From Actinomycetota bacterium (GTDB lineage Bacteria; Actinomycetota; Acidimicrobiia; Acidimicrobiales; CAIXPF01), in NCBI GenBank assembly GCA_034211175.1, contig JAXHUH010000240.1, positions 2,393-66,392 of the forward strand: DNA of 64,000 nt, read 5' to 3'. The number at the start of each line of letters is the position of its first letter. The stretch's first letter is position 1. Below the pieces are notes generated by a model. The model worked only from the letters and a program-made list of their open reading frames with translations, did not search any database and was not told the DNA's origin. Shown in pieces: positions 6,482 to 43,389 of this stretch. The position numbers and the translations under genes are program-made.

Positions 6482-7960
6482 ATGCCGAAACGTCACACCA
6501 TGGAAGGACCTCGGACGGAGAGCGGGAGCGCCACTGCTCGTAGGGCAAGGCGGGCGTCGGTGCGGAGGCTCTGCCTCGTCAGTGTTGCGGCCGTCGCAGT
6601 GGTGCTGATGGCGGCGGTGCCGGCGCACCAGGCGGCCGCGCAGGACTCGTCCTTCGGGGTCGGATCGGGCCGCGCGTCGGCAAAGTACCTCAAGGTTGGC
6701 CCGTCCCGGGGATCGCTGGCCCTCGCGCCAACAGTGGGTCTTGCTCTGTCCGATTTCCTGAACACCCGTGGTCGCGGGGACGTGCGGACCGTCGACTTCG
6801 CTGCCCTGGCGGACTCCCTGCCTCCCGAGCTCTTGGACGCAATGCCCGCGGTCAAGGTCGAGTCCACGGACGATGGTTCCGAGGACGGCCAGACCGCCAC
6901 CCTCGGCACACCCGCCGAGGTGCCGGTTGGATTGTCGGCTGCGACGCTGCGGGCATCTGCCGGCGCCGCGCCGTTCGGCCGGTCGAGCTTCGAGACGGCG
7001 CCGGTCGATCTCGAGGTGCTGGCCGTCAGCGGCGGCACGGCCGAGGCGTTCAGCGGAGTGGTCGACGGAAACATCAGGGAGGCCGTGGGTACCGTCGAGA
7101 TCGGCAAGATCGACATCGCTGGAGGAGCGCTCGTCCTCGAGGGTCTGCGCTGGAAGGCGGTGCACCGCACCGGTGCAGAGTCGGTCGAGCAGGGCACGTT
7201 CACCGTGGGCTCGGTTTCGGTGGCCGGACAGCGCTTCGCCGCCCCCGACGGCGCCGAGCAGCCATTGGCGGACGCCCTTGCCGCCGCCGAGCCGCTGCTC
7301 GCACCGCTGGGCCTCCAGATCACGCTCCCGAAGCCACGGATCGAGAGTGGGATCGTTGAGATGACACCTCTCCGCATCCGGGTGGCCGGCTCCGAGCTGG
7401 GGGCCGTGGTCGGACCGGTACTGGAGGGCGTGCAGCCGGTCCGGGACGCTCTGGTCGATGCGATCCGGAGTGGCACCGAGGACGTCGACGCCGCCATCCT
7501 GCTGGCCGACGTCGCCCTCGGGGTCCTGGCTGGTGGTTCCACCCTCGACATCGAGCTCGGCGGGGTGACGGCCCAGACGGCCGAACCCGCCGAAGCGTTC
7601 ACCTTCGGCGGCGGTTTCGATCTGCCCCCGCCGACAGCGCCCGGCTCGGGCGCTCTGGACATCGGGGCGGCGCCGACGAGCGCAACGTCGATCGACAGCA
7701 CTTCGACACTGCAGTCGTCGCCGACGTCGCTGACGTCGCCGACGCCGCCGACGTCGCCAGCGCCGATGGCTGAGGCAGGTACCGGTGGGGCCACCGACGA
7801 CACCGGCATCGGCGCCTCCACGGTTCCGGTTTCGTCGGCAGGCACCGCAGGCGGCGCCGGCCCGCTCCTCCTCATCGGCTTGGCCGCCGCCGCAGCCGCC
7901 GTGGCCGCCGGAGCCGTGGACTACCGGCGTCTCCTGCGACGCCCCATGCTCCCGGCCTGA
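6482..7960 (+). CDS. Secreted protein of unknown function with an S/T/P-rich stalk and a C-terminal TM anchor
   Basis: ATG with GGGAAGGAG upstream. Signal peptide ...VAAVAVVLMAAVPAHQAAAQD. C-terminus is SPTSLTSPTPPTSPAP...GPLLLIGLAAAAAAVAAGAVDYRRLLRRP. No LPXTG motif. Confidence 0.72.
   Translation: MPKRHTMEGPRTESGSATARRARRASVRRLCLVSVAAVAVVLMAAVPAHQAAAQDSSFGVGSGRASAKYLKVGPSRGSLALAPTVGLALSDFLNTRGRGDVRTVDFAALADSLPPELLDAMPAVKVESTDDGSEDGQTATLGTPAEVPVGLSAATLRASAGAAPFGRSSFETAPVDLEVLAVSGGTAEAFSGVVDGNIREAVGTVEIGKIDIAGGALVLEGLRWKAVHRTGAESVEQGTFTVGSVSVAGQRFAAPDGAEQPLADALAAAEPLLAPLGLQITLPKPRIESGIVEMTPLRIRVAGSELGAVVGPVLEGVQPVRDALVDAIRSGTEDVDAAILLADVALGVLAGGSTLDIELGGVTAQTAEPAEAFTFGGGFDLPPPTAPGSGALDIGAAPTSATSIDSTSTLQSSPTSLTSPTPPTSPAPMAEAGTGGATDDTGIGASTVPVSSAGTAGGAGPLLLIGLAAAAAAVAAGAVDYRRLLRRPMLPA
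7718..7762 (+). repeat. Five imperfect 9-bp tandem units (TCGCCGACG-like) encoding the (S/P)(P/L)(T/A) stalk
   Basis: Read directly: tcgccgacg tcgctgacg tcgccgacg ccgccgacg tcgccagcg, in frame with the CDS. Confidence 0.6.
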
Positions 7961-30514: not shown

Positions 30515-30642
30515 CACGCGCGCCACCCTAGTGTCATGTGGCACCGCATGCCGATGAGGAACTGCGAGCCAGACCGGCATAGGATGCCCGACACCCCGTC
30601 CCCGGCGTGTTGTCCGATGCGCCAACGAAACGAAGGCAATCG

Positions 30643-33147
30643 ATGAGCTGGATCCTGGAGCGCATGGCTCGTGCCGTCGCCCGCACCCCCGCTCGGGTGC
30701 TGCTGGCACTGGTCGTCGTCACCGTCGTCCTCGGCGGCTTCGCCACCCAGCAGACGACCGACGCCGATCTCACCTCCTTCGCTCCCGACAGCGAGCTGGC
30801 GCGCGCCTTCGAGCGGGTGGAAGACGACTTCTCCGGTGGCGGTTCCCGCATCCAGGTGATCGTCGACGCCGGCGAAGGCGGCGACATCCTCTCGTCGGAC
30901 GGCATCGCAGCAGCGAACGCCATCGCCGATGCGGTCCGAGCCGAGGAGTCCGTCGACCTGGCCAGCGGTGAACGGGGCGTGGTGACGTTCGCGGCGCCCG
31001 TGGCGGGCGCGCTGGAGGCGCAGGGCGTCGAGGTGGCCGAGGCCGATGCCGAGGAGATCGCCGCGGCCGTCGAGGTGGCCTACGCAGACCCGCGCGCCGC
31101 GCAAGCCCTCGGGCTGCTCTCCGGCGAGCCGGGGGAGGCCCGGGCGGGTCTCGTGATCATCGAGCTGGACCCGTCGCTGAGTGACAGCGAAGCAGCTGAG
31201 GACCAGCTCGCCGCCGCCGCCGCCATCGCCGACGTCGATACCGCGACCTCTGAGGTGGAGATCGACGCGTTCAGCCAGGCGATCCTGTCCGATCAGCTCC
31301 AGGCTGAGTCCCAGGACGAGATGCCCCGCCTCCTTGGCGTCTCCCTCCTGCTCATCGTCGGCATCCTCGCGTTCCAGTACCGCTCCGCCAGCGATGTCGC
31401 CCTCGGCTTCGCCGGGCTCATCGTCACCATCATGTGGATGTTCGGCATCGGCGTCCTGCTCGGACCGGACTACCTGGGCGTGGTGGGGCCCTTCACCCAG
31501 ATCTCCACCGCGGTCCCGGTCCTCCTCGTCGGTCTCGGCATCGACTACGCCATCCACCTCAACTCGCGCTACCGCGAGGAGCAGAACCACGGTGTCCCGC
31601 CCGGGGGAGCCTCGGCCACGGCGGTGCGGGCCGTCGGGGGCGCACTGGTGCTGGCCACGGTCACCACCGTCGTGGGCTTCCTCACCAACGTCGTCTCGCC
31701 GCTGCCGCCGATGGCCGACTTCGGCATCTTCACCGCGGTGGGCGTGCTCTCGGCGTTCGTCGTCATGGCGCTGCTCATCCCCAGCGCCCGCCACGTGCTC
31801 GACGCCCGCCCCCGCGGGCTGGCCAAGGTCCAGCGTCGCCGTGAGAAGGCGGCGGCAAAGGAGGCCGCCGGTCGCACGGCCCACGCGTCCGGACTCTCCG
31901 CCGTGATGGGCCGCACCGCTGCCTTCGCCGAGCACATCCCCCGCATCACGCTGGCCGTCGCCGCCGTCGTCACCGTGACCGCGGGCGTCGCCGCCACCCA
32001 GATCGAGACCTCGTTCAGCCAGGACGACTTCATCCCGGAGGACTCCGAACCCGGCATCGTCCTCGACAAGGTCGACCGGCTCTTCGGCGGCGACCTCACC
32101 GAGGAGACCTACGTCATCGTCGAGGGCGACGTCACCGACCCGGAGGCGCTCGCTGCGCTCGAGGCGGCGCAGGCCGAGCTGGCCGACACCGAGTTCGTGC
32201 GCACCTCGGGCGGCGAGGCCGACCTGACCACGCCCCTCACCTTGCTCCGCCGGCTCTCGGCCCAGGACCCGAACTTCGCCGCTGCAGCCGGTGAGCTCGG
32301 CTTCGACCCGGCGCAGGGTCTGTCCGACGACGCCGACGCACAGGCCTTGTTCGCCCTGGCGCGGGATGCGGCGCCCGACCGGACGGCACAGGTCGTCGGA
32401 CAGGACGGCGAATCGGCGTTGCTGTCCATCGCCACCAACGCCGGCCAGGAGGACGCCCAGGCCGCGGCCGACGCGATCGACACCGCCGTGGCGCCATTGC
32501 GAGACGCCGGCCTGGAGACCGTGGTCGTCTCGCAGTTCCTGGTCTTCGACGAGGTGCTCGACGCCATGACCGACAGTCAGACGCAGGGCATCGTGATCAC
32601 CCTCGTCGCTGCCCTGCTCCTGCTGGTCAGCTACTACGGGTTCGTGGACCGCAAGCCGCTGCTCGGCGCCATCACCATGGTGCCCTCCGTGGCGGTCGTC
32701 GGCTGGATCCTGGGGACCATGGTGCTGCTCGACATCAGCTTCAACGTGCTCTCCGCCATGGTGGCCAGCATCGGCATCGGCATCGGCGTGCCCTACGGCA
32801 TCCACGTGACCCACCGGTTCCTCGAGGACCGGCGCCGCTACGACACCGTCGACGAGGCGGTCCGCCAGACGCTCACCCACACCGGCGGCGCCATGGCTGC
32901 CTCGGCGGCCACCACGGCGGCCGGCTTCGGCGTGCTGGTGTTCGCGTCCCTCGAGCCGCTCCGCCAGTTCGGGCTCATCGTCGCGCTCACCATCGTGTAC
33001 TCGCTGCTCGCGGCCGCGCTGATCCAGCCGGCCTGCCTCAAGCTGTGGGGTGAGTGGCGGGCCCGCAAGGGCGACGTCGGCGAGCTGCACGACCACGAGG
33101 ACCGTGCCGCCGCGTCTGCGGCCGCCGACTCCAAGATCGGGGTCTGA
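30643..33147 (+). CDS. MMPL-family (RND superfamily) membrane transporter
   Basis: About 834 aa. Two 6-TM bundles each preceded by a large extracytoplasmic domain. MMPL-like motifs (GIDYAIHL.., GIGIGVPYGIHVTHRF). Confidence 0.87.
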   Translation: MSWILERMARAVARTPARVLLALVVVTVVLGGFATQQTTDADLTSFAPDSELARAFERVEDDFSGGGSRIQVIVDAGEGGDILSSDGIAAANAIADAVRAEESVDLASGERGVVTFAAPVAGALEAQGVEVAEADAEEIAAAVEVAYADPRAAQALGLLSGEPGEARAGLVIIELDPSLSDSEAAEDQLAAAAAIADVDTATSEVEIDAFSQAILSDQLQAESQDEMPRLLGVSLLLIVGILAFQYRSASDVALGFAGLIVTIMWMFGIGVLLGPDYLGVVGPFTQISTAVPVLLVGLGIDYAIHLNSRYREEQNHGVPPGGASATAVRAVGGALVLATVTTVVGFLTNVVSPLPPMADFGIFTAVGVLSAFVVMALLIPSARHVLDARPRGLAKVQRRREKAAAKEAAGRTAHASGLSAVMGRTAAFAEHIPRITLAVAAVVTVTAGVAATQIETSFSQDDFIPEDSEPGIVLDKVDRLFGGDLTEETYVIVEGDVTDPEALAALEAAQAELADTEFVRTSGGEADLTTPLTLLRRLSAQDPNFAAAAGELGFDPAQGLSDDADAQALFALARDAAPDRTAQVVGQDGESALLSIATNAGQEDAQAAADAIDTAVAPLRDAGLETVVVSQFLVFDEVLDAMTDSQTQGIVITLVAALLLLVSYYGFVDRKPLLGAITMVPSVAVVGWILGTMVLLDISFNVLSAMVASIGIGIGVPYGIHVTHRFLEDRRRYDTVDEAVRQTLTHTGGAMAASAATTAAGFGVLVFASLEPLRQFGLIVALTIVYSLLAAALIQPACLKLWGEWRARKGDVGELHDHEDRAAASAAADSKIGV

Positions 33148-34409: not shown

Positions 34410-35029
34410 ATGGCCCGGATGCTGCGAGACTCTTGGCGTAGCGACGCCCCGACTTCCGTTGACGACGCGCGCAATCGCCTGATCGATGCAGCCGAGGTGT
34501 GCTTCACCCGGTTCGGCGTGGCCAAGACGACCCTCGAGGACATCGCGACCGAAGCCGGGGTGTCCCGAGCCACGGTGTACCGGTACTTCGAGGGTGGCCG
34601 GGACGAGATCATCCTCGGTGTCGTCCTCCGTGAGGGCAACGAATTCATCGAGTCGCTCGGCCGGCGCGTCCACCACGAGGAGACGCTCGGGGCAGCGATC
34701 GTCGAGGTGTGCTCTACACGGTCTCGGCAGTCCGCAAGAACGAGCATCTCGCGCTCCTGTTCGCCCCGGAGGTCGCCGGGCACACGACCTCGATCGCCAG
34801 TGCTTCCACGGCGTTGTACGAACTGACGCAGGACTTCCTGCGACCCATCTTCGAGCAGGCACGAACAGAGGGTCAACTCCGCGACGGCGTCATCGCCGAC
34901 GACGCCGCCGAGTTCGTCCTCCGGATGATCCTGTCGTTGCTGTCGGTGGCTGGTCCCCGCAAGCGGTCCCAGGCCAAGGAGCGGGAGTTCCTGCGCACCT
35001 ACTGCGCCGGCGCCATCGTACGGGAGTAG
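34410..35029 (+). pseudogene. TetR-family regulator; frame break in GTGTG at 34705-34711
   Basis: Frame 0: HTH RNRLIDAAEVCFTRFGVAKTTLEDIATEAGVSRATVYRYF...AAIVEV. Frame 2 continues VLYTVSAVRKNEHLALLFAPE...EFVLRMILSLL... to the stop at 35029. Confidence 0.75.
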
Positions 35030-35030
35030 C

Positions 35031-35411
35031 TCAGGCGGTCAGGTCAGCCAGCTCGACCCGGAACGCTTGCTGCTCGGCCGTGGGCGTTGCCGTCTGGAGG
35101 GTCATCCCTCGGTCATGTCAGCCTCGACCTCGATCTGGCCGGACATGAACGCCTGCATCGCCGCTGACCGGTCCCCGTCGATGAAGAGGTCTCGGCGATG
35201 TCGCAGGGAACGGTGAGCTTGGTCGGCGCGCCCTCGGTGTGGCCCCGCTCGAAGGTCCCCCGGCGAGGTGGACGTCGACGTCGCCGTCCGGGGCCCCGGT
35301 CACGGTGATGTTCACGGTGGCGTCCGCCAGGGCGTCCGGAGCTTCCGGCTGCTCGGAGTGCAGCTCCTCGACTGCGTCGAACCAGGCCTCGGTCAGGAAG
35401 GGGTGCGACAT
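35031..35411 (-). pseudogene. SCP2 sterol-carrier-domain protein, split over three frames
   Basis: MSHPFLTEAWFDAVEEL...VNITVTGAPDGDVDVHLAGG / TFERGHTEGAPTKLTVPCDIAE / DLFIDGDRSAAMQAFMSGQIEVEADMTEG / MTLQTATPTAEQQAFRVELADLTA. Breaks at the C5 run 35257-35261, at about 35186-35194, and at about 35098-35110. Confidence 0.62.
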
Positions 35412-35451
35412 GGTGTGGGTCCTCGAGTTCGCCAGGAACATTGGTTCCGCT

Positions 35452-35475
35452 GATACAGTAAGAACCTCTTGTAAC
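35452..35475. promoter_or_regulatory. Weaker operator-like site GATACA-N12-TGTAAC (site 4 of 9)
   Basis: AT-rich. 41 nt upstream of the SCP2 start. Keeps the ACA-N12-TGT core and exact spacing. Confidence 0.3.
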
Positions 35476-35558
35476 GGGATCTCGTGGATCGCGGCAAATG
35501 TCCTCGGTCGGGACCGCGGCGCTGCGAGCGTCGGCCCCGCCTCCGGCGCAGGACCTCG

Positions 35559-36890
35559 TCAGGCTCGCTCGCCGGCCAGCCGGGCGAGTGGCCGGGCGAG
35601 CGCGAGGCTGGTGGCGGCGACACCCAGCACGAGCGCCGTCATCCCGCCGCTGACCAGGTAGGGGACCTGGGCCCATGGGGCGACTTGCTCGGCTGCCCCG
35701 CTCCATGCCATGGCACTGGCTGCGACAGCACCGACGCCGGCGGTCGCCGCCGCAGGCAGCGACCAGTCTCTGGGCGCCGCCGACGCACGCCGGCGGGCGA
35801 AGTAGGTGACACCGCCGGCCGCCGCCGCGAGAAGGAGCACGAGTAGTGCGATCGAGGTGGCTTCACCGTCGTGATCGACGGGCAGCAGCGGGAGCTGGGC
35901 CAGCCCCGTTCGAAGGGAGACGGGCGCGGCGGCTGAGGAGGACGCCGGGTCGGGTCCGGCGAGCTCCGAGGACGCCACAGCTGCCACCGGTGAAGAGGGA
36001 CCCGCCTGGTCACCGCGCAGCGCAGATGGATCGCTGGCGGCTGGTCGGCCGACCGGTGGCGACGGCGGGGGCGGCGACGTGTCGTCGGCAGGGGCGGCTG
36101 GCCCTGCGGTGGCCGACCCGTCGTCGGGGGCGGGCGTCTCGGGCGCCGGGGTGGGCAGCGCGGCGCACAGCAGGAACACGGGCGCCAGCACGCTGCCGGC
36201 GAGCACGGGCGGCGATGTCGGCAGCGCAGGGAGCGGTACGGGGACGAGCACGGGAGCGAGACCGAGCGCCAGGAAGGCCAAACCGGGAACCTGGCCGCAG
36301 GCCGGACCGATGACCGGCGCCAGCGGGTCCACCACCGGTGCCAGCGCCTCCAACGCCGGCGCCAGCGTTTCCAGCGCTCCGGCGAGCGCTTGGATCGCCG
36401 GAGCCAGCAACTCTCCCGTCGTCGGCGCTGCAGCGGTGGTGCCCATCGGTCGGCCCCACAGGTGGGCGCTGACCGGGGCGGACACGACGCCGAGCTCGTG
36501 GACCGCCCGGGCCAGCGAGCGCACCGGCGCATCGAGAGTGTCGCGGACCGTTGCGGTGGTGAGCCGTTCCCGTGCGAGGTGGTCGACCACCGGCCCGCCG
36601 GTGGCCGCGACCCGGACCGTCGCGGTTCGCATCTCGCCGAGGGCGCCGGCCAGCCTCATCGTCGACACGCCACTCTGGTCGCGCCCGGCGAAGATGCCGG
36701 TAGCTCCTCCATCCGGATGAGCCATGTCGTCGAGCGTGCCCGTGAGGTCCTCAGTGGCGGAACCGAGGTCGCCGAGCGCCTCGGCGAAGGCGTCGAGCTC
36801 GCCGTCGGCGCCGGCGTGTGCGGTGGGCGGAGTGGTCATCGCAGCAGCCAGCGCAGCGATCACGGCCAGGGACAGGATGCGCCGCATCAT
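35559..36890 (-). CDS. Secreted/membrane protein of unknown function: signal peptide, LAPxxxx heptads, Pro-rich region, C-terminal 2-TM QVPYLVSGG module
   Basis: ATGA overlap with the upstream small gene. Signal peptide MMRRILSLAVIAALAAAMTTPPTAHA. C-terminal AMAWSGAAEQVAPWAQVPYLVSGGMTALVLGVAATSLALA is paralogous to the 119-aa neighbour. Confidence 0.7.
   Translation of the reverse strand: MMRRILSLAVIAALAAAMTTPPTAHAGADGELDAFAEALGDLGSATEDLTGTLDDMAHPDGGATGIFAGRDQSGVSTMRLAGALGEMRTATVRVAATGGPVVDHLARERLTTATVRDTLDAPVRSLARAVHELGVVSAPVSAHLWGRPMGTTAAAPTTGELLAPAIQALAGALETLAPALEALAPVVDPLAPVIGPACGQVPGLAFLALGLAPVLVPVPLPALPTSPPVLAGSVLAPVFLLCAALPTPAPETPAPDDGSATAGPAAPADDTSPPPPSPPVGRPAASDPSALRGDQAGPSSPVAAVASSELAGPDPASSSAAAPVSLRTGLAQLPLLPVDHDGEATSIALLVLLLAAAAGGVTYFARRRASAAPRDWSLPAAATAGVGAVAASAMAWSGAAEQVAPWAQVPYLVSGGMTALVLGVAATSLALARPLARLAGERA
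36303..36407 (-). repeat. Five tandem 21-nt units encoding LAPAIQA LAGALET LAPALEA LAPVVDP LAPVIGP
   Basis: Read directly. In frame with CDS 35559..36890. Confidence 0.8.
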
Positions 36891-37246
36891 GACGATGCAC
36901 CGGTGTTCGATGGCGGATCGGTGTCGGTCGACTCGATGCCCCGGGCTGCAGACACCGCGCCGACGAGGAACACGATCGAGCCGGCCACCGTCAGCGAAAC
37001 GGTGGCGAGTCCGCCGCTGACCAGGTACGGGACCTGCTCGCCGAGAGAGGTCTTCCCCGCCGCACCGTTCCAGGTGATGAACACCACGAACAGGGCGCCG
37101 AGCCAGAGCGCGACGGCGGCCATGTCGGTCCGGCCGCGGCCGCGAGACGACGCGGCGCCCGCCCGGTCCCAGAGGGTACGGAACTCGTCCCAGCGGATGG
37201 ACACCGACTCCTCGGTGTGCGTCCGCAGCGGTTCGCTGGGGGTCAT
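36887..37246 (-). CDS. Small 2-TM membrane protein with a W-x-GAA...QVPYLVSGG module
   Basis: 119 aa. ATGA overlap with the ATPase stop. AAVALWLGALFVVFITWNGAAGKTSLGEQVPYLVSGGLATVSLTVAGSIVFLVGA. Confidence 0.65.
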   Translation of the reverse strand: MTPSEPLRTHTEESVSIRWDEFRTLWDRAGAASSRGRGRTDMAAVALWLGALFVVFITWNGAAGKTSLGEQVPYLVSGGLATVSLTVAGSIVFLVGAVSAARGIESTDTDPPSNTGASS

Positions 37247-38832
37247 GATGCGTTGCTCCTTCCGAGATACGCGGCGGCGACGTCCCCGTGCAGTCGGTCG
37301 GCGAGGTCGGTGACGCGGCCGGCCATCTGCACCGCTCCCACCTCGAGGACGCAGGCCACGTCTGCATGGTTCAGCACCGCCAGGTTCTGCTCGACGGCCA
37401 GAACGGTCACGCCGGTGCGGTTCACGGTGGAGACGAGGTCGAGCACCGTCTCGACGACGATGGGCGCCAGGCCGAGAGAGGCCTCGTCGACCAGCAGCAG
37501 CTGGGGATCGCTCATCAGGGCCCGTCCGATGGCCAGCATCTGCTGTTCGCCACCCGAGAGGGTGCCGGCGGTCTGGCGGAGCCGTTGGCCGAGCACCGGA
37601 AACGTCTCGAGCACCTGCTCGAGACGCTCGCGGCGGTGCTCGCGGCCGGCGACGAGCGTTCCGGATGCGAGGTTGTCCTCCACCGGCAGGCTCGAGAAGA
37701 GCTCACGGCCTTCCGGCACGAGGGCGACCCCTCGTCGCACGATGTCGGGTGTCGACATCGCCCGCACCGACTCACCACCCACGCGGATGTCGCCATCGAG
37801 CACGTCGGCCAAGCCGAGGACGGCCCGCAACGTCGTGGTCTTCCCGGCGCCGTTGGCGCCGAGGAGCACGCCGAACTCGCCACGACCCAGCTCGAGATCG
37901 ACGCCGTGGACGACCGGGATGCCGCCGTAGCCGGCCCGCAGCCCGTGAAAGGAGAGGTGCGCTACGGCGTCGTCAGTCGACACGGGCCACGTCCGGTGCG
38001 GCGGTGAGCGGGCGGGTGCGGCGGCGCCCGCCGCGGGAAGACTTCGCGGTGCACGGCCGCCGGACCCCAGGTAGGCCTCGACCACCGTGGGGTCGTCGGT
38101 GACCTCGTCGGGTGTTCCGGCGGCGATGACCTGTCCGAAGTTCAGCACGTAGATCCGGTCGGCGACCTCCCGCACCAGAGGTACGTGGTGCTCGATGACC
38201 ACGACCGTGACGCCGAGGCGGGCGCGGATGTCGCGGACGACGCCGGACAGCCTCGGGATCTCCTCACGGCTGGCGCCGGCCGCAGGCTCATCCAGCAGCA
38301 GCACGGCGGGCCGGGTCAGAAGGGCGCAACCGAGCTCGAGGAGCTTGCGGCTGCCATAGGGCATGTCGGCGGCGCTCACGTCCCGGTACCCGGTGAGCCC
38401 GAGGATGGCGAGGACGTCGTCAGCCATGGCGAGCCGGTCGAGCTCGCGCTGGCGCTCCCGACGGCCCAGGCCGAGCAGACCAGCTGGTGAGTCGGTGTCC
38501 ACGGTGAGGTAGGAGGCGATGAGCAGGTTGCCCACCGCCGTCTCGGACAACCACAGGCCCCCTTGCTGGAAGGTGCGACTGAGCCCCTTCCTCGTCCGCG
38601 CTGCGGGCGACAGCGTGGTGATGTCCTGATCTTCCAGCTGGACCCGCCCGGAGGTGGGCGAGACGAACCCGGTCAGGACGTTGAACAACGTGGTCTTGCC
38701 TGCGCCGTTGGGGCCGATGATGGCGACCACCTCGCCGGGCGCGACGTCGATGCTCACCCCGTCGAGGGCCCGCACGCCGGCGAACTGCACGGTGAGGTCG
38801 AACGCCTCGAGCTTCGGGGTGCGTGCGTTCAT
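37243..38832 (-). CDS. Fused double ABC ATPase, LivG-like domain then LivF-like domain
   Basis: No stop codon between the domains. Walker A GPNGAGKTT (LivG part, IEHHV) and GANGAGKTT (LivF part, SGGEQQML). The roughly 30-aa linker has lower GC3 than an alternative frame, so the fusion could be an indel artefact. Confidence 0.82.
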   Translation of the reverse strand: MNARTPKLEAFDLTVQFAGVRALDGVSIDVAPGEVVAIIGPNGAGKTTLFNVLTGFVSPTSGRVQLEDQDITTLSPAARTRKGLSRTFQQGGLWLSETAVGNLLIASYLTVDTDSPAGLLGLGRRERQRELDRLAMADDVLAILGLTGYRDVSAADMPYGSRKLLELGCALLTRPAVLLLDEPAAGASREEIPRLSGVVRDIRARLGVTVVVIEHHVPLVREVADRIYVLNFGQVIAAGTPDEVTDDPTVVEAYLGSGGRAPRSLPAAGAAAPARSPPHRTWPVSTDDAVAHLSFHGLRAGYGGIPVVHGVDLELGRGEFGVLLGANGAGKTTTLRAVLGLADVLDGDIRVGGESVRAMSTPDIVRRGVALVPEGRELFSSLPVEDNLASGTLVAGREHRRERLEQVLETFPVLGQRLRQTAGTLSGGEQQMLAIGRALMSDPQLLLVDEASLGLAPIVVETVLDLVSTVNRTGVTVLAVEQNLAVLNHADVACVLEVGAVQMAGRVTDLADRLHGDVAAAYLGRSNAS

Positions 38833-40853
38833 GGTGCGTCTCCGGACATGACCAGCGTCGGGTCCGCCGGGGCCGAACGTGGCGGCGCAGGTGCTTCGGT
38901 CTGCGGCGGTGTCGGGCTGTCGTGGGTGCCCTCCGAGTCGGGGCGCCGCCGCTCGTCGATGCGTGCTCGCAGCGAACGCACGAGGCCGGCCATGCCATCG
39001 GGGCGGAACCCGATGAGCACCAGCAGGAGCGCAGCACCGACGAAGAGGGCGACGTCGTCCTGGCCGCCCCCGCCCCCGTAGACCGTGTTGAAGGTGAACA
39101 GCGCGGTCATGATCGCGACACCGATCCGGGAACCGATACCGCCGAGCACCACGTACAGCACCACGGTGAACGACAGCAGGAGCGGGAACAGCAGCGAGAC
39201 GAGGTGGCCGATCCGGAGCGCGAACAGCGCTCCGGCAACGCCCGCTCCGACCCCGGAAACGGTGAACCCCGCGACGCTCAGGGCGGCCGGCGAGATCCCC
39301 CGAGCTGATGCTGCTGCTCGGTTGTCGCGCACGGCGACCCATGCCCGCCCGAGCGGCGACCCTTGCAGTCGGCGGTCGGCGAGCCACACGGCGGCCATGA
39401 TGACGAGTGCGGCGCCGAGGAACGTCCGGTCGTCGGCGAGGTCGAAGGGGCCGATCGCGGGCCGAGCGAGCTGGAGTCCCGCCCCGCCCTGGGAGAACTC
39501 CGGGCGCGGGAACACAGACACCTCGAGCACCACGGCGAACGACAGCGTCAGGACCGCCAGGTACAGGCCCCGCACGCGCAGTGCCGCCATGCCAAGCACG
39601 AAGGCCACTGCCGCGGTGCTCACCACGCCGACTCCGAAGGCGAAGAAGAAGGGGAACTCCCAGGTGGTGCTGGCGACGGCGGTCATGAACGCCCCCACAC
39701 CCATCAACCCGCCGTGGGCCAGCGAGAGCTGACCGGTGTTGGCCAGCAGCGTGTTGAGGCTCAGCGCGAGGATCACCATCACCGGGATCAGCGACAGCTT
39801 GAAGGCATCGATGCCGCTGACCGAGCGCACCAGCACCAAGCCGACCAGCACCATGCCGGCCGCCGGCAGCACCCCTCCGATCAGTCGCACCCGCCACGGT
39901 GACGGCGGTCGAGGAGTGCGAACGAGGCTGTGGAGCTGGACCAGCGACTCACCGCCCTCTGCCGCCACGCCCTCGGGGCCACGGCCGAACAGCCCTTGGG
40001 GGCGGAACAGCAGCACGCCGAACAAGATGAGGAATACCACCAGCTGGGGCGCACCAGCCGTGCCGCCAGCCCAGTAGCGGGTCAGCGCTTCGGCGAGGCC
40101 CACGATCAACCCTCCGGCGACCGCTCCAGGAAGGCTGCGCATGCCGCCGAGGATGGCGGCGGTGAATGAACCGGCGAGTGCGTAGGTGAGGAAGCCGGGT
40201 CCCACGCGCTGGCCGACCCATCCGAGGAAGATCGCAGCCAGGGCCGCGAGCGCACCGGCGATGCACCACGTCACCGCTTCCACCACAGGCGGTCGCAGCC
40301 CGATCACCTTGGCTGCGTAGGGGTTGTCTGCGCTGACTCGGACCATGAGGCCGATCGGGGTCCGCTCCACCAGGAGCCACAGGCCGAGGCAGACGACGGC
40401 CACGGAGACGACGACCGCGATCTGGGTGGGGGTGACAACGGCACCGAAGAGCTCGATGCCGCCACCGGTGAACGGCGCCGCGAACGGTCGGACCGGCCCG
40501 CTGTCGCCGGCGAACAGCCGGACCTCCAGCACGGTCAGCATCAGCAGGGCCGCGATGGTGCCGACCAACGGTGGGAGGCTGCCCTTGGAGCTGCCCTTCC
40601 GGAACAGCACGGCACGGATTGCGACGCTCACCAGGGCACCGCCGATGACGCCTGCGGGGACGGCGACGGCCCAGGGCAGCTCGAGATCCTGCACCAGCTT
40701 GGCCACGAGGAGCGCACCGAACACGCCGATCTCACCGTGGGCAAAGCTCAAGATCCGTGATGAGTTGTTGATCAGCACCAGTCCGAGGGCGAGCAAGGCG
40801 TACGCGGCGCCGCCGGTGACGCCGACCACCAGGTAGGGCAGCACGTCGCTCAT
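38829..40853 (-). CDS. Fused LivH-LivM-type ABC permease
   Basis: ATG at 40853 with GGAGAGGGGAA RBS. About 674 aa polytopic. ATGA overlap with the ATPase start. Confidence 0.87.
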   Translation of the reverse strand: MSDVLPYLVVGVTGGAAYALLALGLVLINNSSRILSFAHGEIGVFGALLVAKLVQDLELPWAVAVPAGVIGGALVSVAIRAVLFRKGSSKGSLPPLVGTIAALLMLTVLEVRLFAGDSGPVRPFAAPFTGGGIELFGAVVTPTQIAVVVSVAVVCLGLWLLVERTPIGLMVRVSADNPYAAKVIGLRPPVVEAVTWCIAGALAALAAIFLGWVGQRVGPGFLTYALAGSFTAAILGGMRSLPGAVAGGLIVGLAEALTRYWAGGTAGAPQLVVFLILFGVLLFRPQGLFGRGPEGVAAEGGESLVQLHSLVRTPRPPSPWRVRLIGGVLPAAGMVLVGLVLVRSVSGIDAFKLSLIPVMVILALSLNTLLANTGQLSLAHGGLMGVGAFMTAVASTTWEFPFFFAFGVGVVSTAAVAFVLGMAALRVRGLYLAVLTLSFAVVLEVSVFPRPEFSQGGAGLQLARPAIGPFDLADDRTFLGAALVIMAAVWLADRRLQGSPLGRAWVAVRDNRAAASARGISPAALSVAGFTVSGVGAGVAGALFALRIGHLVSLLFPLLLSFTVVLYVVLGGIGSRIGVAIMTALFTFNTVYGGGGGQDDVALFVGAALLLVLIGFRPDGMAGLVRSLRARIDERRRPDSEGTHDSPTPPQTEAPAPPRSAPADPTLVMSGDAP

Positions 40854-40884
40854 CGGTTCCCCTCTCCGACACCCGTCGCCCGGT

Positions 40885-42381
40885 TCACCCGCCGAACCCC
40901 AGGTGCCAGGTCGAGTCGATCTCGACGAGCCGGCCGGCGTCGGCGTCGCCCTGCCACAGCACGACGCCCCGGCCGCCGACGTGGCTGCCGTCACGGAAAT
41001 CCAGCGGGTTCAGCACCTGGTTGTCGTAGACGAGACCGCCCATGGCGGCGTTGAACGTCGCCACCGTGAGGTTCGGGCCGGTCTGCTCCAGTGCTTCGCG
41101 CAGCGCATCCGAGATCGCCCACACCAGGATGAGCAGGGGGTCTTCGTCGCCGGGGAACGGCTCGTCCGGATAGGCGGCCTTCCAGTCGGCGCGAGCCTGC
41201 TGCTGCAGGGCGGAGTCGGAGTCGGCAGGGTGGTGGTTGGCAGAGAACGTGATGCAACCGTCGAGGCTCTCTGATCCGAGCGGCGCTTCGATGCCGCACG
41301 CCGCCGTGTTGGCGACGCCCAGCCACTGCGGGCTGTAACCCTGTGAGGTACAGGCGTCGGCAGCCTGGGCCATGACCAACCCCGAAGCCATCATGTAGAC
41401 GAGCTCGACGCCTTCCTGCTGCATCTTGATGCAGGTGGCCTGCAGCTGGGACGGGTTCGGGTCCTTGTCCACGGCGTCGTCGACAGCGATCTCCGCCCCG
41501 AGCTCCCGAGCCCGTGTCACGAACCCCCGGCGCGCGCTCTCGGCGTTGGGCGTGTTCATCCGCAGCATCGCCATCGGCCGGTCCCGGCCGTCGAGCTCGG
41601 CCACGGCGTACTCGGCCAGCAGGGCGCTCATCGGCTCGTACGTCATGGTCAGCGCCCAGTAGTTCGGGTTGCCCAGCAGGCCTTGCTCGACCGTCCCTGC
41701 TGACAGGTAGGGGCGGCCCTGGCCGACCGTGTACTGGCCGCAGGCTGCGATCTGGTCGGCGCCGGCTGCCCCGTAGACGAAGAATACGTCGTGTTGCTCG
41801 ACCAGGGTCTTGCATGCCTGGACCGAACCGCTGGGCGTGTACTGGTCGTCGCCGATGAACACCTCCACCTCGCGGCCGTGGATGCCGCCCTCGCGGTTGC
41901 GTGCGTCCCAGTAGGCGTTGACCGCCTCTTCCAGCGGGAGCAAAGAGCTGATGTCCAGGCCGCTGATCGACATCGGCAGGTGCATGCCGACGCGGACGGT
42001 GTCTGCGGTGACGCCAGGCGCGAACCCGTCGGCCGCAACCGCCGACCCGGCGGCGACACCGACCTCTGCGGTCCCGCCCCCGTCGCCTCCAGCCGGCCCT
42101 CCGGTGCTGGCCGGTGGTGTCGCCGTCGTCGCCGCCGCCGTCTTGCTTGGCGTCGGAGCGCCGCCAACCACATCGTCGGTGGGTGCGTCGGCGACCCCGG
42201 TGGCGCCGCCGCCGTCCTCGGCGTACGGGGTGAGGCCGGCGCCCCCGGTGGCGGCGAGCGACTCGGGGTCGACCTTGGACCCGCACGCCGCTGCGACGAG
42301 CGCACCGACGAGAACCAGGCCCACGAGCCCGACGCGAGATCGCCCGAAGGCATAATGTGCGGTTTCTCGACGCTCGACCAT
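40885..42381 (-). CDS. ABC substrate-binding lipoprotein, LivK/type-1 PBP fold
   Basis: 498 aa. Signal plus lipobox-like LVGALVAAAC, A/T/G-rich linker, then an SBP-like domain. GAGGGGGG RBS. Confidence 0.86.
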   Translation of the reverse strand: MVERRETAHYAFGRSRVGLVGLVLVGALVAAACGSKVDPESLAATGGAGLTPYAEDGGGATGVADAPTDDVVGGAPTPSKTAAATTATPPASTGGPAGGDGGGTAEVGVAAGSAVAADGFAPGVTADTVRVGMHLPMSISGLDISSLLPLEEAVNAYWDARNREGGIHGREVEVFIGDDQYTPSGSVQACKTLVEQHDVFFVYGAAGADQIAACGQYTVGQGRPYLSAGTVEQGLLGNPNYWALTMTYEPMSALLAEYAVAELDGRDRPMAMLRMNTPNAESARRGFVTRARELGAEIAVDDAVDKDPNPSQLQATCIKMQQEGVELVYMMASGLVMAQAADACTSQGYSPQWLGVANTAACGIEAPLGSESLDGCITFSANHHPADSDSALQQQARADWKAAYPDEPFPGDEDPLLILVWAISDALREALEQTGPNLTVATFNAAMGGLVYDNQVLNPLDFRDGSHVGGRGVVLWQGDADAGRLVEIDSTWHLGFGG

Positions 42382-42480
42382 CGGCCCCCCTCGGTGCGCT
42401 GGGAGCGCAACCGTTCGTCCGTGGTCCTCACTTCGACGGGTGGGCGGGCACTTCCTTCCTTGCTCCAGCCGTCCCGAGGG

Positions 42481-43389
42481 TCACACGCCGAGCGTCTCCG
42501 CCGGACGGGCCTGGTCGAGCAGCTCGGAGACGACCGGGCCGAGCTCGGCGGGCTCCCAGCGGTCCTCCTTGTCTCGCTCGGGTCCCCGCCGCCATCCCTC
42601 GGCCACCGAGATCCGGCCACCGGCCACGTTGAACACCTGTCCGGTCACGCCGGTGGACTCGGCGCTGCCCAGCCACACCACCAAAGGTGAGATGTTCTCC
42701 GGTGCATACGCGTCGAAGGTGCCGGGCTCCACGTCGCGGGCCGCCTCACCGAAGCCGAGGTTCTCCGTCATGCGGGTCAGCGCCGCCGGGGCGATGGCGT
42801 TGACGGTGACGCCGTAGCGGCCGAGCTCCTTGGCGGCGATGTTCGTCATCGCCGCGATGCCCGCCTTCGCCGCCCCGTAGTTGAGCTGGCCCGGGTTCCC
42901 GTAGAGCCCCGACCCCGACGACGTGTTGATGATCCGGGCGTCGTTGGATTCGCCGGCCTTGGCCCGTTCCCTCCAGTGGGCCGCCGCCCAGCGCAGCGGG
43001 GCGAAGGTGCCCTTCAGATGGACCTTGATGACGGCGTCCCACTCGTCCTCGGTCATGTTCACGAGCATCCGGTCGCGCAGGATGCCCGCGTTGTTGACGA
43101 GCACGTCGATGCCGCCGAAGGTGTCGATGGCCGTCTGGATCAGACGTCCGGCGCCATCCCAGTCGGACACGTCGTCGCCGTTGGCCACGGCCTCGCTGCC
43201 CATGCCGCGGATGTCGTCGACCACCTCGCCGGCGGGCCCGCCGGACGAACCGCGACCGTCGACCTCGGCACCGAGGTCGTTGACCACCACCTTGGCCCCC
43301 TCGGCGGCGAAGGCGAGCGCGTGCGCGCGGCCGATGCCCCGTGCCGCACCCGTGATGACGACCACCCGGCCGTCGCAGATTCCACTCAT
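42481..43389 (-). CDS. SDR oxidoreductase, paralogue of 25165..26061
   Basis: VVVITGAARGIGRAHA...VVVNDLGAEVDG...IDVLVNNAGILRD...NYGAAKAG. Confidence 0.88.
   Translation of the reverse strand: MSGICDGRVVVITGAARGIGRAHALAFAAEGAKVVVNDLGAEVDGRGSSGGPAGEVVDDIRGMGSEAVANGDDVSDWDGAGRLIQTAIDTFGGIDVLVNNAGILRDRMLVNMTEDEWDAVIKVHLKGTFAPLRWAAAHWRERAKAGESNDARIINTSSGSGLYGNPGQLNYGAAKAGIAAMTNIAAKELGRYGVTVNAIAPAALTRMTENLGFGEAARDVEPGTFDAYAPENISPLVVWLGSAESTGVTGQVFNVAGGRISVAEGWRRGPERDKEDRWEPAELGPVVSELLDQARPAETLGV

What the first reader, a model, noticed from the sequence alone, without database searches (positions are those of the whole stretch)
35559..37246. ABC importer operon extended by two membrane proteins sharing a novel W-x-GAA...QVPYLVSGG 2-TM module, one with a (LAPxxxx)5 repeat
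Two further genes are chained to the fused ATPase by ATGA overlaps at 37243 and 36887.

The first is a 119-aa 2-TM protein. The second is a 443-aa protein with these parts in order:
- signal peptide
- an N-terminal domain of about 140 aa
- five exact-period heptads LAPAIQA/LAGALET/LAPALEA/LAPVVDP/LAPVIGP (21-nt repeats, 36303-36407)
- hydrophobic and Pro-rich segments
- a C-terminal 2-TM module

The C-terminal module (AMAWSGAAEQVAPWAQVPYLVSGGMTALVLGVAATSLALA) is clearly paralogous to the small protein (ITWNGAAGKTSLGEQVPYLVSGGLATVSLTVAGSIVFLVGA).

I cannot place this module in any family I know. Tight coupling to SBP-permease-ATPase suggests extra transmembrane subunits, or an envelope-spanning accessory, of a Liv-type importer inside a lipid regulon.
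Basis: seen in the sequence. Interest (0 to 1): 0.65.

Follow-up and report, generated by a model that had tools for sequence, protein, structure and literature searches.

The report
Unnamed membrane hairpin tied to Liv transporters
Two real, conserved membrane proteins at the end of a Liv-type nutrient-importer operon share a two-helix hairpin that belongs to a large, unnamed actinobacterial protein family found almost only beside such importers, so it is probably an undescribed extra component of this transporter class.

Summary
On the minus strand an SBP, a LivHM permease and a LivG/F ATPase are followed by a 119-aa and a 443-aa ORF joined by ATGA overlaps. Both ORFs end in the same W-x-G-A-A...Q-V-P-Y-L-V-S-G-G two-helix hairpin, and the five LAPxxxx heptads lie at 36303-36407.

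Both ORFs are conserved and under purifying selection. Neither has a Pfam, NCBIfam, PDB or fold match.

A hairpin profile finds 1142 representative clusters, and every named example is from Actinomycetota. The module occurs in 47 of 296 good genomes sampled across the phylum. Every source name is "hypothetical" or an automatic guess.

Wherever enough flanking DNA is available, a Liv-type permease lies within about 4 kb: 34 of 34 and 20 of 20 fully flanked loci, and 4 of 4 loci in the window's own genome. Gene order differs between lineages. The hairpin start codon often overlaps the LivF stop. One natural protein fuses the small and large proteins.

Best reading (about 0.6): these are accessory membrane components that dock on the importer. 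Physical contact and role are not shown.

The large protein is confined to a narrow clade. The "fused ATPase" rests on a single-base deletion relative to close relatives.

The parts
40885..42381 (-). Solute-binding protein, probably a lipoprotein (..VAAAC lipobox), Peripla_BP_6
   Evidence: PF13458, E 8.5e-42. Translation.
38829..40853 (-). Fused LivH-LivM permease with two BPD_transp_2 domains
   Evidence: PF02653, E 9.8e-60, two stretches. Translation.
37243..38820 (-). LivG and LivF ATPase domains read as one 525-aa ORF. The fusion depends on a 1-nt deletion near 38042 relative to relatives with separate genes.
   Evidence: PF00005 twice and PF12399. Junction alignment with L094 and L137.
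36887..37246 (-). Small 119-aa protein. It has a cytoplasmic N-terminus with the conserved IRWDEFRxLWDR motif, then the 2-TM hairpin and a short tail.
   Evidence: There are 17 homologues at 54-97% identity. dN/dS is 0.36-0.47.
36953..37129 (-). Hairpin module of the small protein (residues 40-98): TM1, W-N-G-A-A...Q-V-P-Y-L-V-S-G-G, TM2
   Evidence: HMM hit with E 1.9e-30 in the window's six frames. Hydropathy.
35559..36890 (-). Large 443-aa protein
   Evidence: There are 16 homologues at 39-87% identity with full coverage. dN/dS is 0.31-0.36.
36441..36812 (-). Extracytoplasmic helical N-domain (residues 27-150). It is the only confidently modelled part of the large protein.
   Evidence: AF2 gives three long helices with block pLDDT 64-86. 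No fold match below E 0.4.
36303..36407 (-). Five heptads, LAPAIQA/LAGALET/LAPALEA/LAPVVDP/LAPVIGP
   Evidence: This region and the next together are the most constrained stretch, with dN/dS 0.085-0.145.
36144..36302 (-). Pro-punctuated hydrophobic region (residues 197-249) with invariant C198 and C242. It could be a membrane hairpin or a hydrophobic surface.
   Evidence: Invariant columns. Hydropathy peaks at 200-225 and 225-249.
35886..36143 (-). Variable Pro/Ala/Ser-rich linker (residues 250-335)
   Evidence: Composition P20, A20, S13 over residues 247-335. dN/dS 0.42-0.65. pLDDT below 50.
35799..35861 (-). TM helix (residues 344-364) preceded by the conserved LPLLPVDHDGEA and followed by RRR
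35586..35765 (-). C-terminal hairpin module of the large protein (residues 376-435)
   Evidence: HMM hit with E 5.7e-30. BLASTP paralogy to the small protein.

Best explanation
The two ORFs encode accessory membrane components of the Liv/HAAT-type ABC importer encoded just upstream.

The shared unit is a helix, tight turn, helix hairpin with both ends in the cytoplasm. Its invariant small and aromatic residues (W-x-G-A-A and Q-x-P-Y-x-x-S-G-G) sit at the outer-leaflet ends of the two helices.

Proposed mechanism (inferred, not shown):
- The small-residue faces pack against the LivH/LivM membrane domain or against each other.
- One hairpin may serve each pseudo-symmetric half of the permease.
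- The small protein adds a conserved cytoplasmic amphipathic N-terminus near the ATPases.
- The large protein uses its hairpin and one more TM helix to tether a helical, Pro-rich hydrophobic ectodomain above the permease.
- There the ectodomain could help capture or hand over a hydrophobic acid-type substrate, or help dock the lipoprotein SBP.

Shown: the ORFs are real, the hairpins are paralogous, the family is large and unnamed, and its link to Liv-type ABC operons is near-obligate.

Inferred: physical docking, stoichiometry and what the ectodomain does.
For: Conserved operon.
- The order SBP, permease, LivG, LivF, small, large, with 4-nt overlaps, recurs in relatives down to 39-47% identity (L001, L094/L095, L136-L139).
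- P0128 (574 aa) is a natural fusion of the small and large proteins in the same operon position.

Family size.
- The hairpin profile finds 1142 representative clusters at E<=1e-3 and 57 at E<=1e-10.
- 47 of 296 good genomes sampled across the phylum carry it.

Linkage to Liv-type ABC genes.
- Motif scan: 69 of 80 loci have a Liv-type permease or ATPase nearby, and 34 of 34 loci with 8 kb on both sides have a permease within 4.3 kb.
- One-per-genome profile sample: 33 of 40 loci, and 20 of 20 fully flanked, have a permease within 3.3 kb.
- Own genome: all 4 module loci lie inside Liv operons, while only 2.1% of the genome lies within 5 kb of such a permease.
- Gene order varies: after LivF, between the permease and LivG, upstream of the permease, convergent, or divergent from the SBP gene. 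The link survives all of these.
- In 10 of 19 loci where the hairpin gene follows LivF, its ATG overlaps the LivF TGA.

Other support.
- Module-linked LivG sequences cluster on a tree: 3 label changes against 7.5 expected, with 0 of 500 shuffles as low.
- Two hairpins per locus arise in three ways: adjacent genes, tandem fusions (13 of the top 150 hits have two stretches) and the small-plus-large pair.
- AF2 of a tandem relative (pLDDT 80) gives helix, 3-residue turn, long helix for each module.
- Purifying selection is strongest on the hairpin and the heptad plus hydrophobic region.
Against: - There is no direct evidence of physical contact.
- No multimer model could be run.
- No fusion of the module to a Liv permease or ATPase was seen among the 150 listed hits.
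- The one transporter fusion found is to an MFS protein, on a 4.9-kb contig that carries no Liv genes.
- Most family members carry a cytoplasmic coiled coil and often a Zn-ribbon. That fits a regulatory role as well as a structural one.
- Only about a quarter of Liv loci in the window's own genome have the module (4 of 15). The window's other Liv locus has none, so the module is not a general requirement.
- The large protein model is poor (mean pLDDT 48).
- The unlinked LivG controls in the tree come from one genome only.
Confidence: 0.6

Rival explanations
1. The hairpin proteins are transporter-coupled regulators or signal adaptors, not transport subunits. The hairpin senses or contacts the importer. 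The output is carried by cytoplasmic parts: a coiled coil and Zn-ribbon in most relatives, and the conserved N-terminal helix in the window's small protein. These parts would modulate ATPase activity or gene expression.
For: - Most family members are a hairpin plus a long cytoplasmic helix, often with a C-terminal YHxxxC...CxxC domain.
- That domain gives sub-threshold Ada_Zn_binding and DUF6233 hits.
- AF2 shows TM2 continuing into a long cytoplasmic helix of about 50 residues, then a beta-rich Zn-ribbon with pLDDT about 90.
- The module is optional among Liv loci.
- A TetR gene lies close by in the window and in relatives.
Against: - The window's two proteins lack the coiled coil and the Zn-ribbon.
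- The large protein invests most of its length outside the cell.
- No DNA-binding or kinase domain was detected.
- This rival still implies contact with the transporter, so it overlaps the best explanation.
Confidence: 0.2
2. The proteins are independent envelope proteins that are only co-regulated with the importer. The large protein would be a surface-exposed binder of hydrophobic substrates or a cell-wall protein, and the hairpin merely a membrane anchor. No physical complex forms with LivHMGF.
For: - Other Liv operons carry unrelated secreted, C-terminally anchored proteins (P0194 in L029, C307:21077-22381, window 6482-7960). Operon-linked surface proteins are therefore a recurring theme.
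- The neighbourhood encodes MMPL, acyl-CoA dehydrogenases, a thiolase, a thioesterase and an SCP2-like protein.
Against: - A simple anchor would not need invariant W/GAA/Q-PY/SGG residues conserved across a phylum.
- Most family members have no ectodomain to anchor.
- The hairpin gene sits inside operons, between the permease and ATPase genes, and is translationally coupled to LivF.
Confidence: 0.13
3. The small protein is a holin-like or other pore-forming 2-TM protein (Holin-X, PF07332), as one automatic UniRef name for a relative suggests.
For: - One UniRef member is named 'Holin-X, holin superfamily III'.
- Relatives give weak PF07332 hits of 10.8-15.2 bits.
Against: - Every hit is far below the 28.4-bit cut-off.
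- The window proteins give no hit at E<=1.
- A PF07332 scan of the window's own genome finds one true member elsewhere (103 bits) and none of the four module loci, even at E<=1.
- There is no phage or lysis context, and the link to Liv operons is constant.
Confidence: 0.02
4. The ORFs are chance open frames in 70% GC DNA and are not translated.
For: High-GC DNA gives many long spurious ORFs.
Against: - Full-length homologues go down to 39% identity with conserved motifs.
- The GC3/GC2 pattern is that of coding sequence.
- dN/dS is below 0.5 overall and 0.085-0.145 in the most conserved region.
- Start/stop overlaps are conserved.
- A natural fusion of the two proteins exists.
Confidence: 0.01

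Closest known systems
Liv / HAAT-family ABC importers (TC 3.A.1.4; LivJ-LivHMGF, BraCDEFG, UrtABCDE)
   Same: The core of the operon is a standard member: a Peripla_BP_6 SBP, two BPD_transp_2 membrane domains, and LivG-type (BCA_ABC_TP_C) and LivF-type ATPases.
   Different: To my knowledge the described systems have five components and no extra membrane subunit. Here two further membrane proteins are translationally coupled to LivF. The hairpin family recurs beside such systems across Actinomycetota.
Small membrane subunits of SBP-dependent secondary transporters (TRAP DctQ, TTT TctB)
   Same: These are small helical membrane proteins encoded with, and needed by, an SBP-dependent importer. 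Relatives gave weak hits to both.
   Different: The hits are noise-level: TctB 13.0-16.5 bits against a 29.1 cut-off, and DctQ 17.3 against 28.3. DctQ has 4 TM helices and TctB 4-5, and they serve non-ABC transporters (from my own knowledge).
Single-pass or hairpin accessory micro-subunits such as KdpF, AcrZ, CydX (from my own knowledge)
   Same: These are short membrane proteins encoded in or next to a transporter operon. They bind the main membrane subunit and tune or stabilise it. This is the closest functional analogy.
   Different: There is no sequence or fold relation. Those proteins are 30-50 aa with a single TM helix. This module is a 2-TM hairpin that is also fused to ectodomains, coiled coils and Zn-ribbons.
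Mce/Mla-type lipid ABC importers with accessory proteins (Mam/OmamA, LucA, MlaB/D)
   Same: These are actinobacterial ABC systems in a lipid-catabolism context, with several extra membrane-anchored accessory proteins that have helical ectodomains and Pro-rich tails.
   Different: The permease family is different (YrbE/MlaE, not BPD_transp_2). No MCE domain is present. The only trace is an insignificant PDB hit to an Mce protein (E 0.54).
Holin-X (PF07332) 2-TM actinobacterial proteins
   Same: They are about 100-aa 2-TM hairpins from Actinobacteria. One relative carries this automatic name.
   Different: The match is below threshold, and the module loci are not detected by the family model in the window's own genome. 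The context is transporter operons, not lysis cassettes.

Membership tests
HAAT / Liv-type ABC importer (operon core) | Peripla_BP_6-type solute-binding protein | tested here: met
   PF13458, 144.5 bits against a 31.7 cut-off.
HAAT / Liv-type ABC importer (operon core) | Two BPD_transp_2 (LivH/LivM) membrane domains | tested here: met
   PF02653, 202.4 bits, two stretches in one 674-aa protein.
HAAT / Liv-type ABC importer (operon core) | LivG-type ATPase with the BCA_ABC_TP_C tail, plus a LivF-type ATPase | tested here: met
   PF00005 twice and PF12399 at 43.2 bits. Reading them as one ORF depends on a 1-nt deletion.
Any curated family for the hairpin module (Pfam-A, NCBIfam) | Score above the curated cut-off of some model | tested here: not met
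   No family at E<=1 for P0002 or P0006. Sixteen wider members give only sub-threshold hits.
Holin-X, PF07332 | Match to the family model above 28.4 bits | tested here: not met
   The best relative scores 15.2 bits. The own-genome scan finds none of the four module loci at E<=1.
TctB (PF07331) / DctQ (PF04290) small transporter subunits | Match above the cut-off and 4 or more TM helices | tested here: not met
   At most 17.3 bits. The module has two TM helices.
Ada-type Zn-binding domain (PF02805) / DUF6233 | Cys-rich Zn-ribbon present in the protein | tested here: not met
   It is absent from both window proteins. In relatives it is present only at sub-threshold level, 18.6 and 23.7 bits.
Proposed new family: Liv-associated 2-TM hairpin | W-x-G-(A/V/S)-(A/S) at the end of TM1 and Q-x-P-(Y/F)-x-x-S-G-G at the start of TM2 | tested here: met
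   Both window proteins score E about 1e-30 against profile A3. Invariant columns are listed.
Proposed new family: Liv-associated 2-TM hairpin | Gene lies within about 5 kb of Liv-type permease and ATPase genes | tested here: met
   This holds for the window, 34 of 34 and 20 of 20 fully flanked loci, and 4 of 4 own-genome loci.
Proposed new family: Liv-associated 2-TM hairpin | Physical association with the LivHM/LivGF complex | not testable with these tools
   No multimer prediction, proteomics or RNA data was available.

The most novel reading that the evidence does not exclude
The hairpin is a phylum-wide, previously unrecognised adaptor subunit of Liv/HAAT ABC importers. Two hairpins would clamp the two halves of the permease. 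Through their variable appendages they would couple the importer either to extracytoplasmic capture domains, as in this window, or to cytoplasmic coiled-coil and Zn-ribbon outputs. A subset of actinobacterial ABC importers would then be modular machines that both transport and signal.
Probability: 0.3. Interest if true: 0.8.

Novelty: new variant of a known kind. Interest (0 to 1): 0.66.

Why it matters
Liv/HAAT importers are among the most numerous uptake systems in soil and aquatic Actinomycetota. The genomes sampled give 6 to 44 PF02653 permease-domain matches each.

These importers are treated as five-component machines. A conserved extra membrane component would change that view:
- It has more than 1100 sequence clusters and no Pfam or NCBIfam model.
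- It would alter the accepted subunit list for part of this family.
- It would give curators a family to define.
- It would offer a handle on how hydrophobic acids or lipid-derived substrates reach these transporters in organisms without a periplasm.

The claim is directly testable in cultivable carriers such as Lentzea, Micromonospora, Allorhizocola and Actinospongicola halichondriae.

Tried and rejected
- Pfam and NCBIfam scans of both window proteins and 16 relatives gave no family.
- PDB sequence search with both profiles gave only designed coiled coils and noise.
- AF2 of the large protein was poor, with mean pLDDT 48. Foldseek against the PDB gave nothing below E 0.4 for either model.
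- Holin-X membership was tested and rejected.
- I planned to fold the natural small-plus-large fusion P0128. MAFFT placed the small proteins' module on the C-terminal copy. I did not hand in that alignment and folded a tandem-module relative instead.
- A regex search for the small protein's N-terminal RWDxFRxLW motif in the 120 fetched loci found none. The motif is specific to the window's clade plus P0043, P0044 and P0128.
- The secreted anchored proteins of other Liv operons (P0194, P0198) show no BLASTP similarity to each other. They were not compared with the large protein.
- Three literature searches found no description of such a subunit.
- Searching earlier scan findings by sequence found nothing.
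- The promoter and terminator scan of 34900-43000 found no sites.
Full report
**1. What is in the sequence**

The window is about 70% GC. On the minus strand it carries, in order:

| Gene | Coordinates | Evidence |
|---|---|---|
| Peripla_BP_6 solute-binding protein | 40885-42381 | |
| Fused LivH-LivM permease | 38829-40853 | |
| ORF with LivG-type and LivF-type ATPase domains | 37243-38820 | |
| 119-aa ORF | 36887-37246 | |
| 443-aa ORF | 35559-36890 | |

An AAGGAG box precedes the small ORF.
- The five heptads LAPAIQA/LAGALET/LAPALEA/LAPVVDP/LAPVIGP occupy 36303-36407. Tandem Repeats Finder sees the 21-nt period over only 2.6 copies.
- The two proteins share their hairpin. BLASTP gives 17/38 identities with E 8e-7. 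In a joint alignment W, G-A-A, Q, P-Y and S-G-G are invariant.
- Hydropathy and charge put both ends of the hairpin in the cytoplasm and the conserved motif at the outer ends of the helices.

**2. Are the ORFs genes?**

- Each has 16-17 full-length homologues, almost all from metagenome assemblies, down to 39% identity.
- Codon-position GC is typical of coding sequence.
- Nei-Gojobori dN/dS against three relatives:

| Region | dN/dS |
|---|---|
| Small protein | 0.36-0.47 |
| Large protein | 0.31-0.36 |
| Heptad plus Pro-rich hydrophobic region | 0.085-0.145 |
| TM helix plus hairpin | 0.17-0.30 |
| Pro/Ala/Ser linker | 0.42-0.65 |

- The same six-gene order with 4-nt overlaps is kept in every relative with enough contig.
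- In one Acidimicrobiales contig the small and large proteins are a single 574-aa protein in the same operon position (P0128).

**3. Is the module known?**

- Neither protein hits Pfam or NCBIfam at E<=1.
- Sixteen wider family members give only sub-threshold noise.
- PDB sequence searches and Foldseek searches of two AF2 models give nothing significant.
- Source names are "hypothetical protein" or "uncharacterized membrane protein". There are two automatic UniRef guesses, Holin-X and LapA domain.
- The Holin-X idea fails. PF07332 finds one true member in the window's own genome but none of the four module loci.
- Three literature searches found no description.

**4. How large is the family and what does it look like?**

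- A 70-position profile of the hairpin finds 1142 representative proteins (50% clusters) at E<=1e-3 and 57 at E<=1e-10.
- Named genomes are all Actinomycetota, apart from two contigs from one MAG labelled Burkholderiales: Acidimicrobiia, Mycobacteriales, Frankiales, Nitriliruptorales, Lentzea, Micromonospora, Allorhizocola and Actinospongicola.
- In an even sample of the phylum, 47 of 296 good genomes and 44 of 204 genera carry it, often in several copies.
- The usual member is 80-250 aa, with the hairpin near the N-terminus. It is followed by a long cytoplasmic helix and often a C-terminal YHxxxC...CxxC Zn-ribbon.
- 13 of the top 150 hits contain two hairpins. One is fused to the C-terminus of an MFS transporter.
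- AF2 of a tandem member (mean pLDDT 80) models each module as helix, 3-residue turn, long helix running into the cytoplasm, and a beta-rich C-terminal domain.
- The window's large protein belongs to a narrow clade of 17 clusters at 90% identity, plus the fusion. Its model is poor except for a three-helix N-domain.

**5. Linkage to Liv-type ABC genes**

This is the decisive comparative result.

- Motif-based scan of 185,579 species genomes:
  - 69 of 80 loci have a Liv-type permease or ATPase nearby.
  - The 11 without lie within 1.7 kb of a contig end.
  - All 34 loci with 8 kb on both sides have a BPD_transp_2 permease within 4.3 kb.
- Independent one-per-genome sample from the profile search:
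  - 33 of 40 loci have the permease within 3.3 kb.
  - All 20 fully flanked loci do.
  - The rest are truncated on one side.
- Own genome:
  - The profile search at E<=0.01 gave five matches at four loci: the window plus contigs C229, C307 and C97. All four lie in Liv operons.
  - Only 2.1% of the genome lies within 5 kb of one of its 15 Liv permease loci.
  - Even in Liv-rich genomes, with 24-44 permease-domain hits in about 3 Mb, the chance expectation is at most roughly 15%.
- Gene order differs between lineages: after LivF, between the permease and LivG, just upstream of the permease, convergent with LivF, or divergent from the SBP gene. The link is therefore kept by selection, not by inertia.
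- Where the hairpin gene follows LivF, its ATG overlaps the LivF TGA in 10 of 19 loci.
- LivG sequences from module-linked systems cluster on a tree: 3 label changes against 7.5 expected, with 0 of 500 shuffles as low. The unlinked controls come only from the window's genome.

**6. Mechanism**

- The invariant residues are small (G-A-A, S-G-G) or interfacial (W, Y, Q, P). They lie at the outer-leaflet ends of the two helices. That pattern fits tight helix packing in the membrane.
- Hairpin pairs arise repeatedly by three genetic routes, and the Liv membrane domain has two homologous halves.
- I therefore propose that hairpins dock on the permease, possibly one per half, and carry lineage-specific appendages.
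- In this window the appendages are a conserved cytoplasmic amphipathic N-terminus (small protein) and a tethered helical, Pro-rich hydrophobic ectodomain with two invariant cysteines (large protein).
- The neighbourhood contains MMPL, acyl-CoA dehydrogenases, a thiolase, a thioesterase, an SCP2-like gene and TetR. This suggests a hydrophobic acid or lipid-derived substrate. Neither the substrate nor a regulon was tested.
- Docking, stoichiometry and the ectodomain's role are inference. I put about 0.6 on physical accessory components.
- The main rival is a regulatory adaptor role, which the coiled-coil and Zn-ribbon relatives favour.

**7. Caveats**

- The module is optional. Only 4 of 15 Liv loci in this genome have it, and the window's other Liv locus has none.
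- No fusion to a Liv component was seen among the 150 listed hits.
- The adjacent TetR and SCP2-like genes also show frame breaks. Assembly indels are therefore plausible in this stretch. The two ORFs of interest are intact over their full length against all homologues.

**8. Verdict**

- The transporter class is known. The hairpin family and its near-obligate tie to that class appear to be undescribed.
- I rate this a new variant of a known kind, of moderate to high interest, and readily testable.

Noticed in passing
window ~38042 (within 37243-38820, - strand): The LivG-LivF fusion arises from one missing base in the LivG tail relative to L137 and L094, where LivG and LivF are separate genes overlapping by 11 nt. 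It may be a recent fusion or an assembly indel.
   Followed up: yes
window 34410-35029 (+): A TetR-family gene is 91% identical to the intact 206-aa TetR of L136 but is split between two frames near 34706. This is a frameshift or a sequencing error.
   Followed up: partly
window 35031-35411 (-): An SCP2-like gene lies directly downstream of the large protein. Its N- and C-terminal parts match the L136 SCP2 protein in one frame. The middle is out of frame and holds an in-frame stop, which implies two indels.
   Followed up: partly
G000 contigs C229:8350-8739, C307:22300-22863, C97:30209-30712: Three further diverged hairpin genes lie in the same genome, each inside a different Liv operon. C229 follows LivF. 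C307 and C97 lie between the permease and LivG.
   Followed up: yes
L029:6547-7815; G000 C307:21077-22381; window 6482-7960: A second kind of extra gene occurs in Liv operons: secreted, beta-rich or unknown-fold proteins of about 420-490 aa with a Pro/Ser linker and a C-terminal TM anchor. Some sit next to a hairpin gene. L029:6547-7815 has no Pfam hit, and P0194 and P0198 show no BLASTP similarity to each other.
   Followed up: partly
L144:932-2890 (P0193/P0186): A 652-aa MFS transporter carries the hairpin module and a short coiled coil fused to its C-terminus, on a 4.9-kb contig without Liv genes. The module is therefore not strictly confined to ABC systems.
   Followed up: partly
relatives P0041, P0042, P0045, P0048, P0064, P0069, P0195: Many family members end in a conserved (S/T)YHxxxCxxV...PCRVCxP domain, probably a Zn-ribbon. 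It scores just below the Ada_Zn_binding and DUF6233 cut-offs and AF2 models it with high confidence. It may be a separate undescribed cytoplasmic domain.
   Followed up: partly
window 30607-33147 (+): An MMPL-family (RND-type) membrane protein of 846 aa lies 2.4 kb from the operon, among thiolase, acyl-CoA dehydrogenase, alpha/beta-hydrolase and 4HBT thioesterase genes.
   Followed up: no
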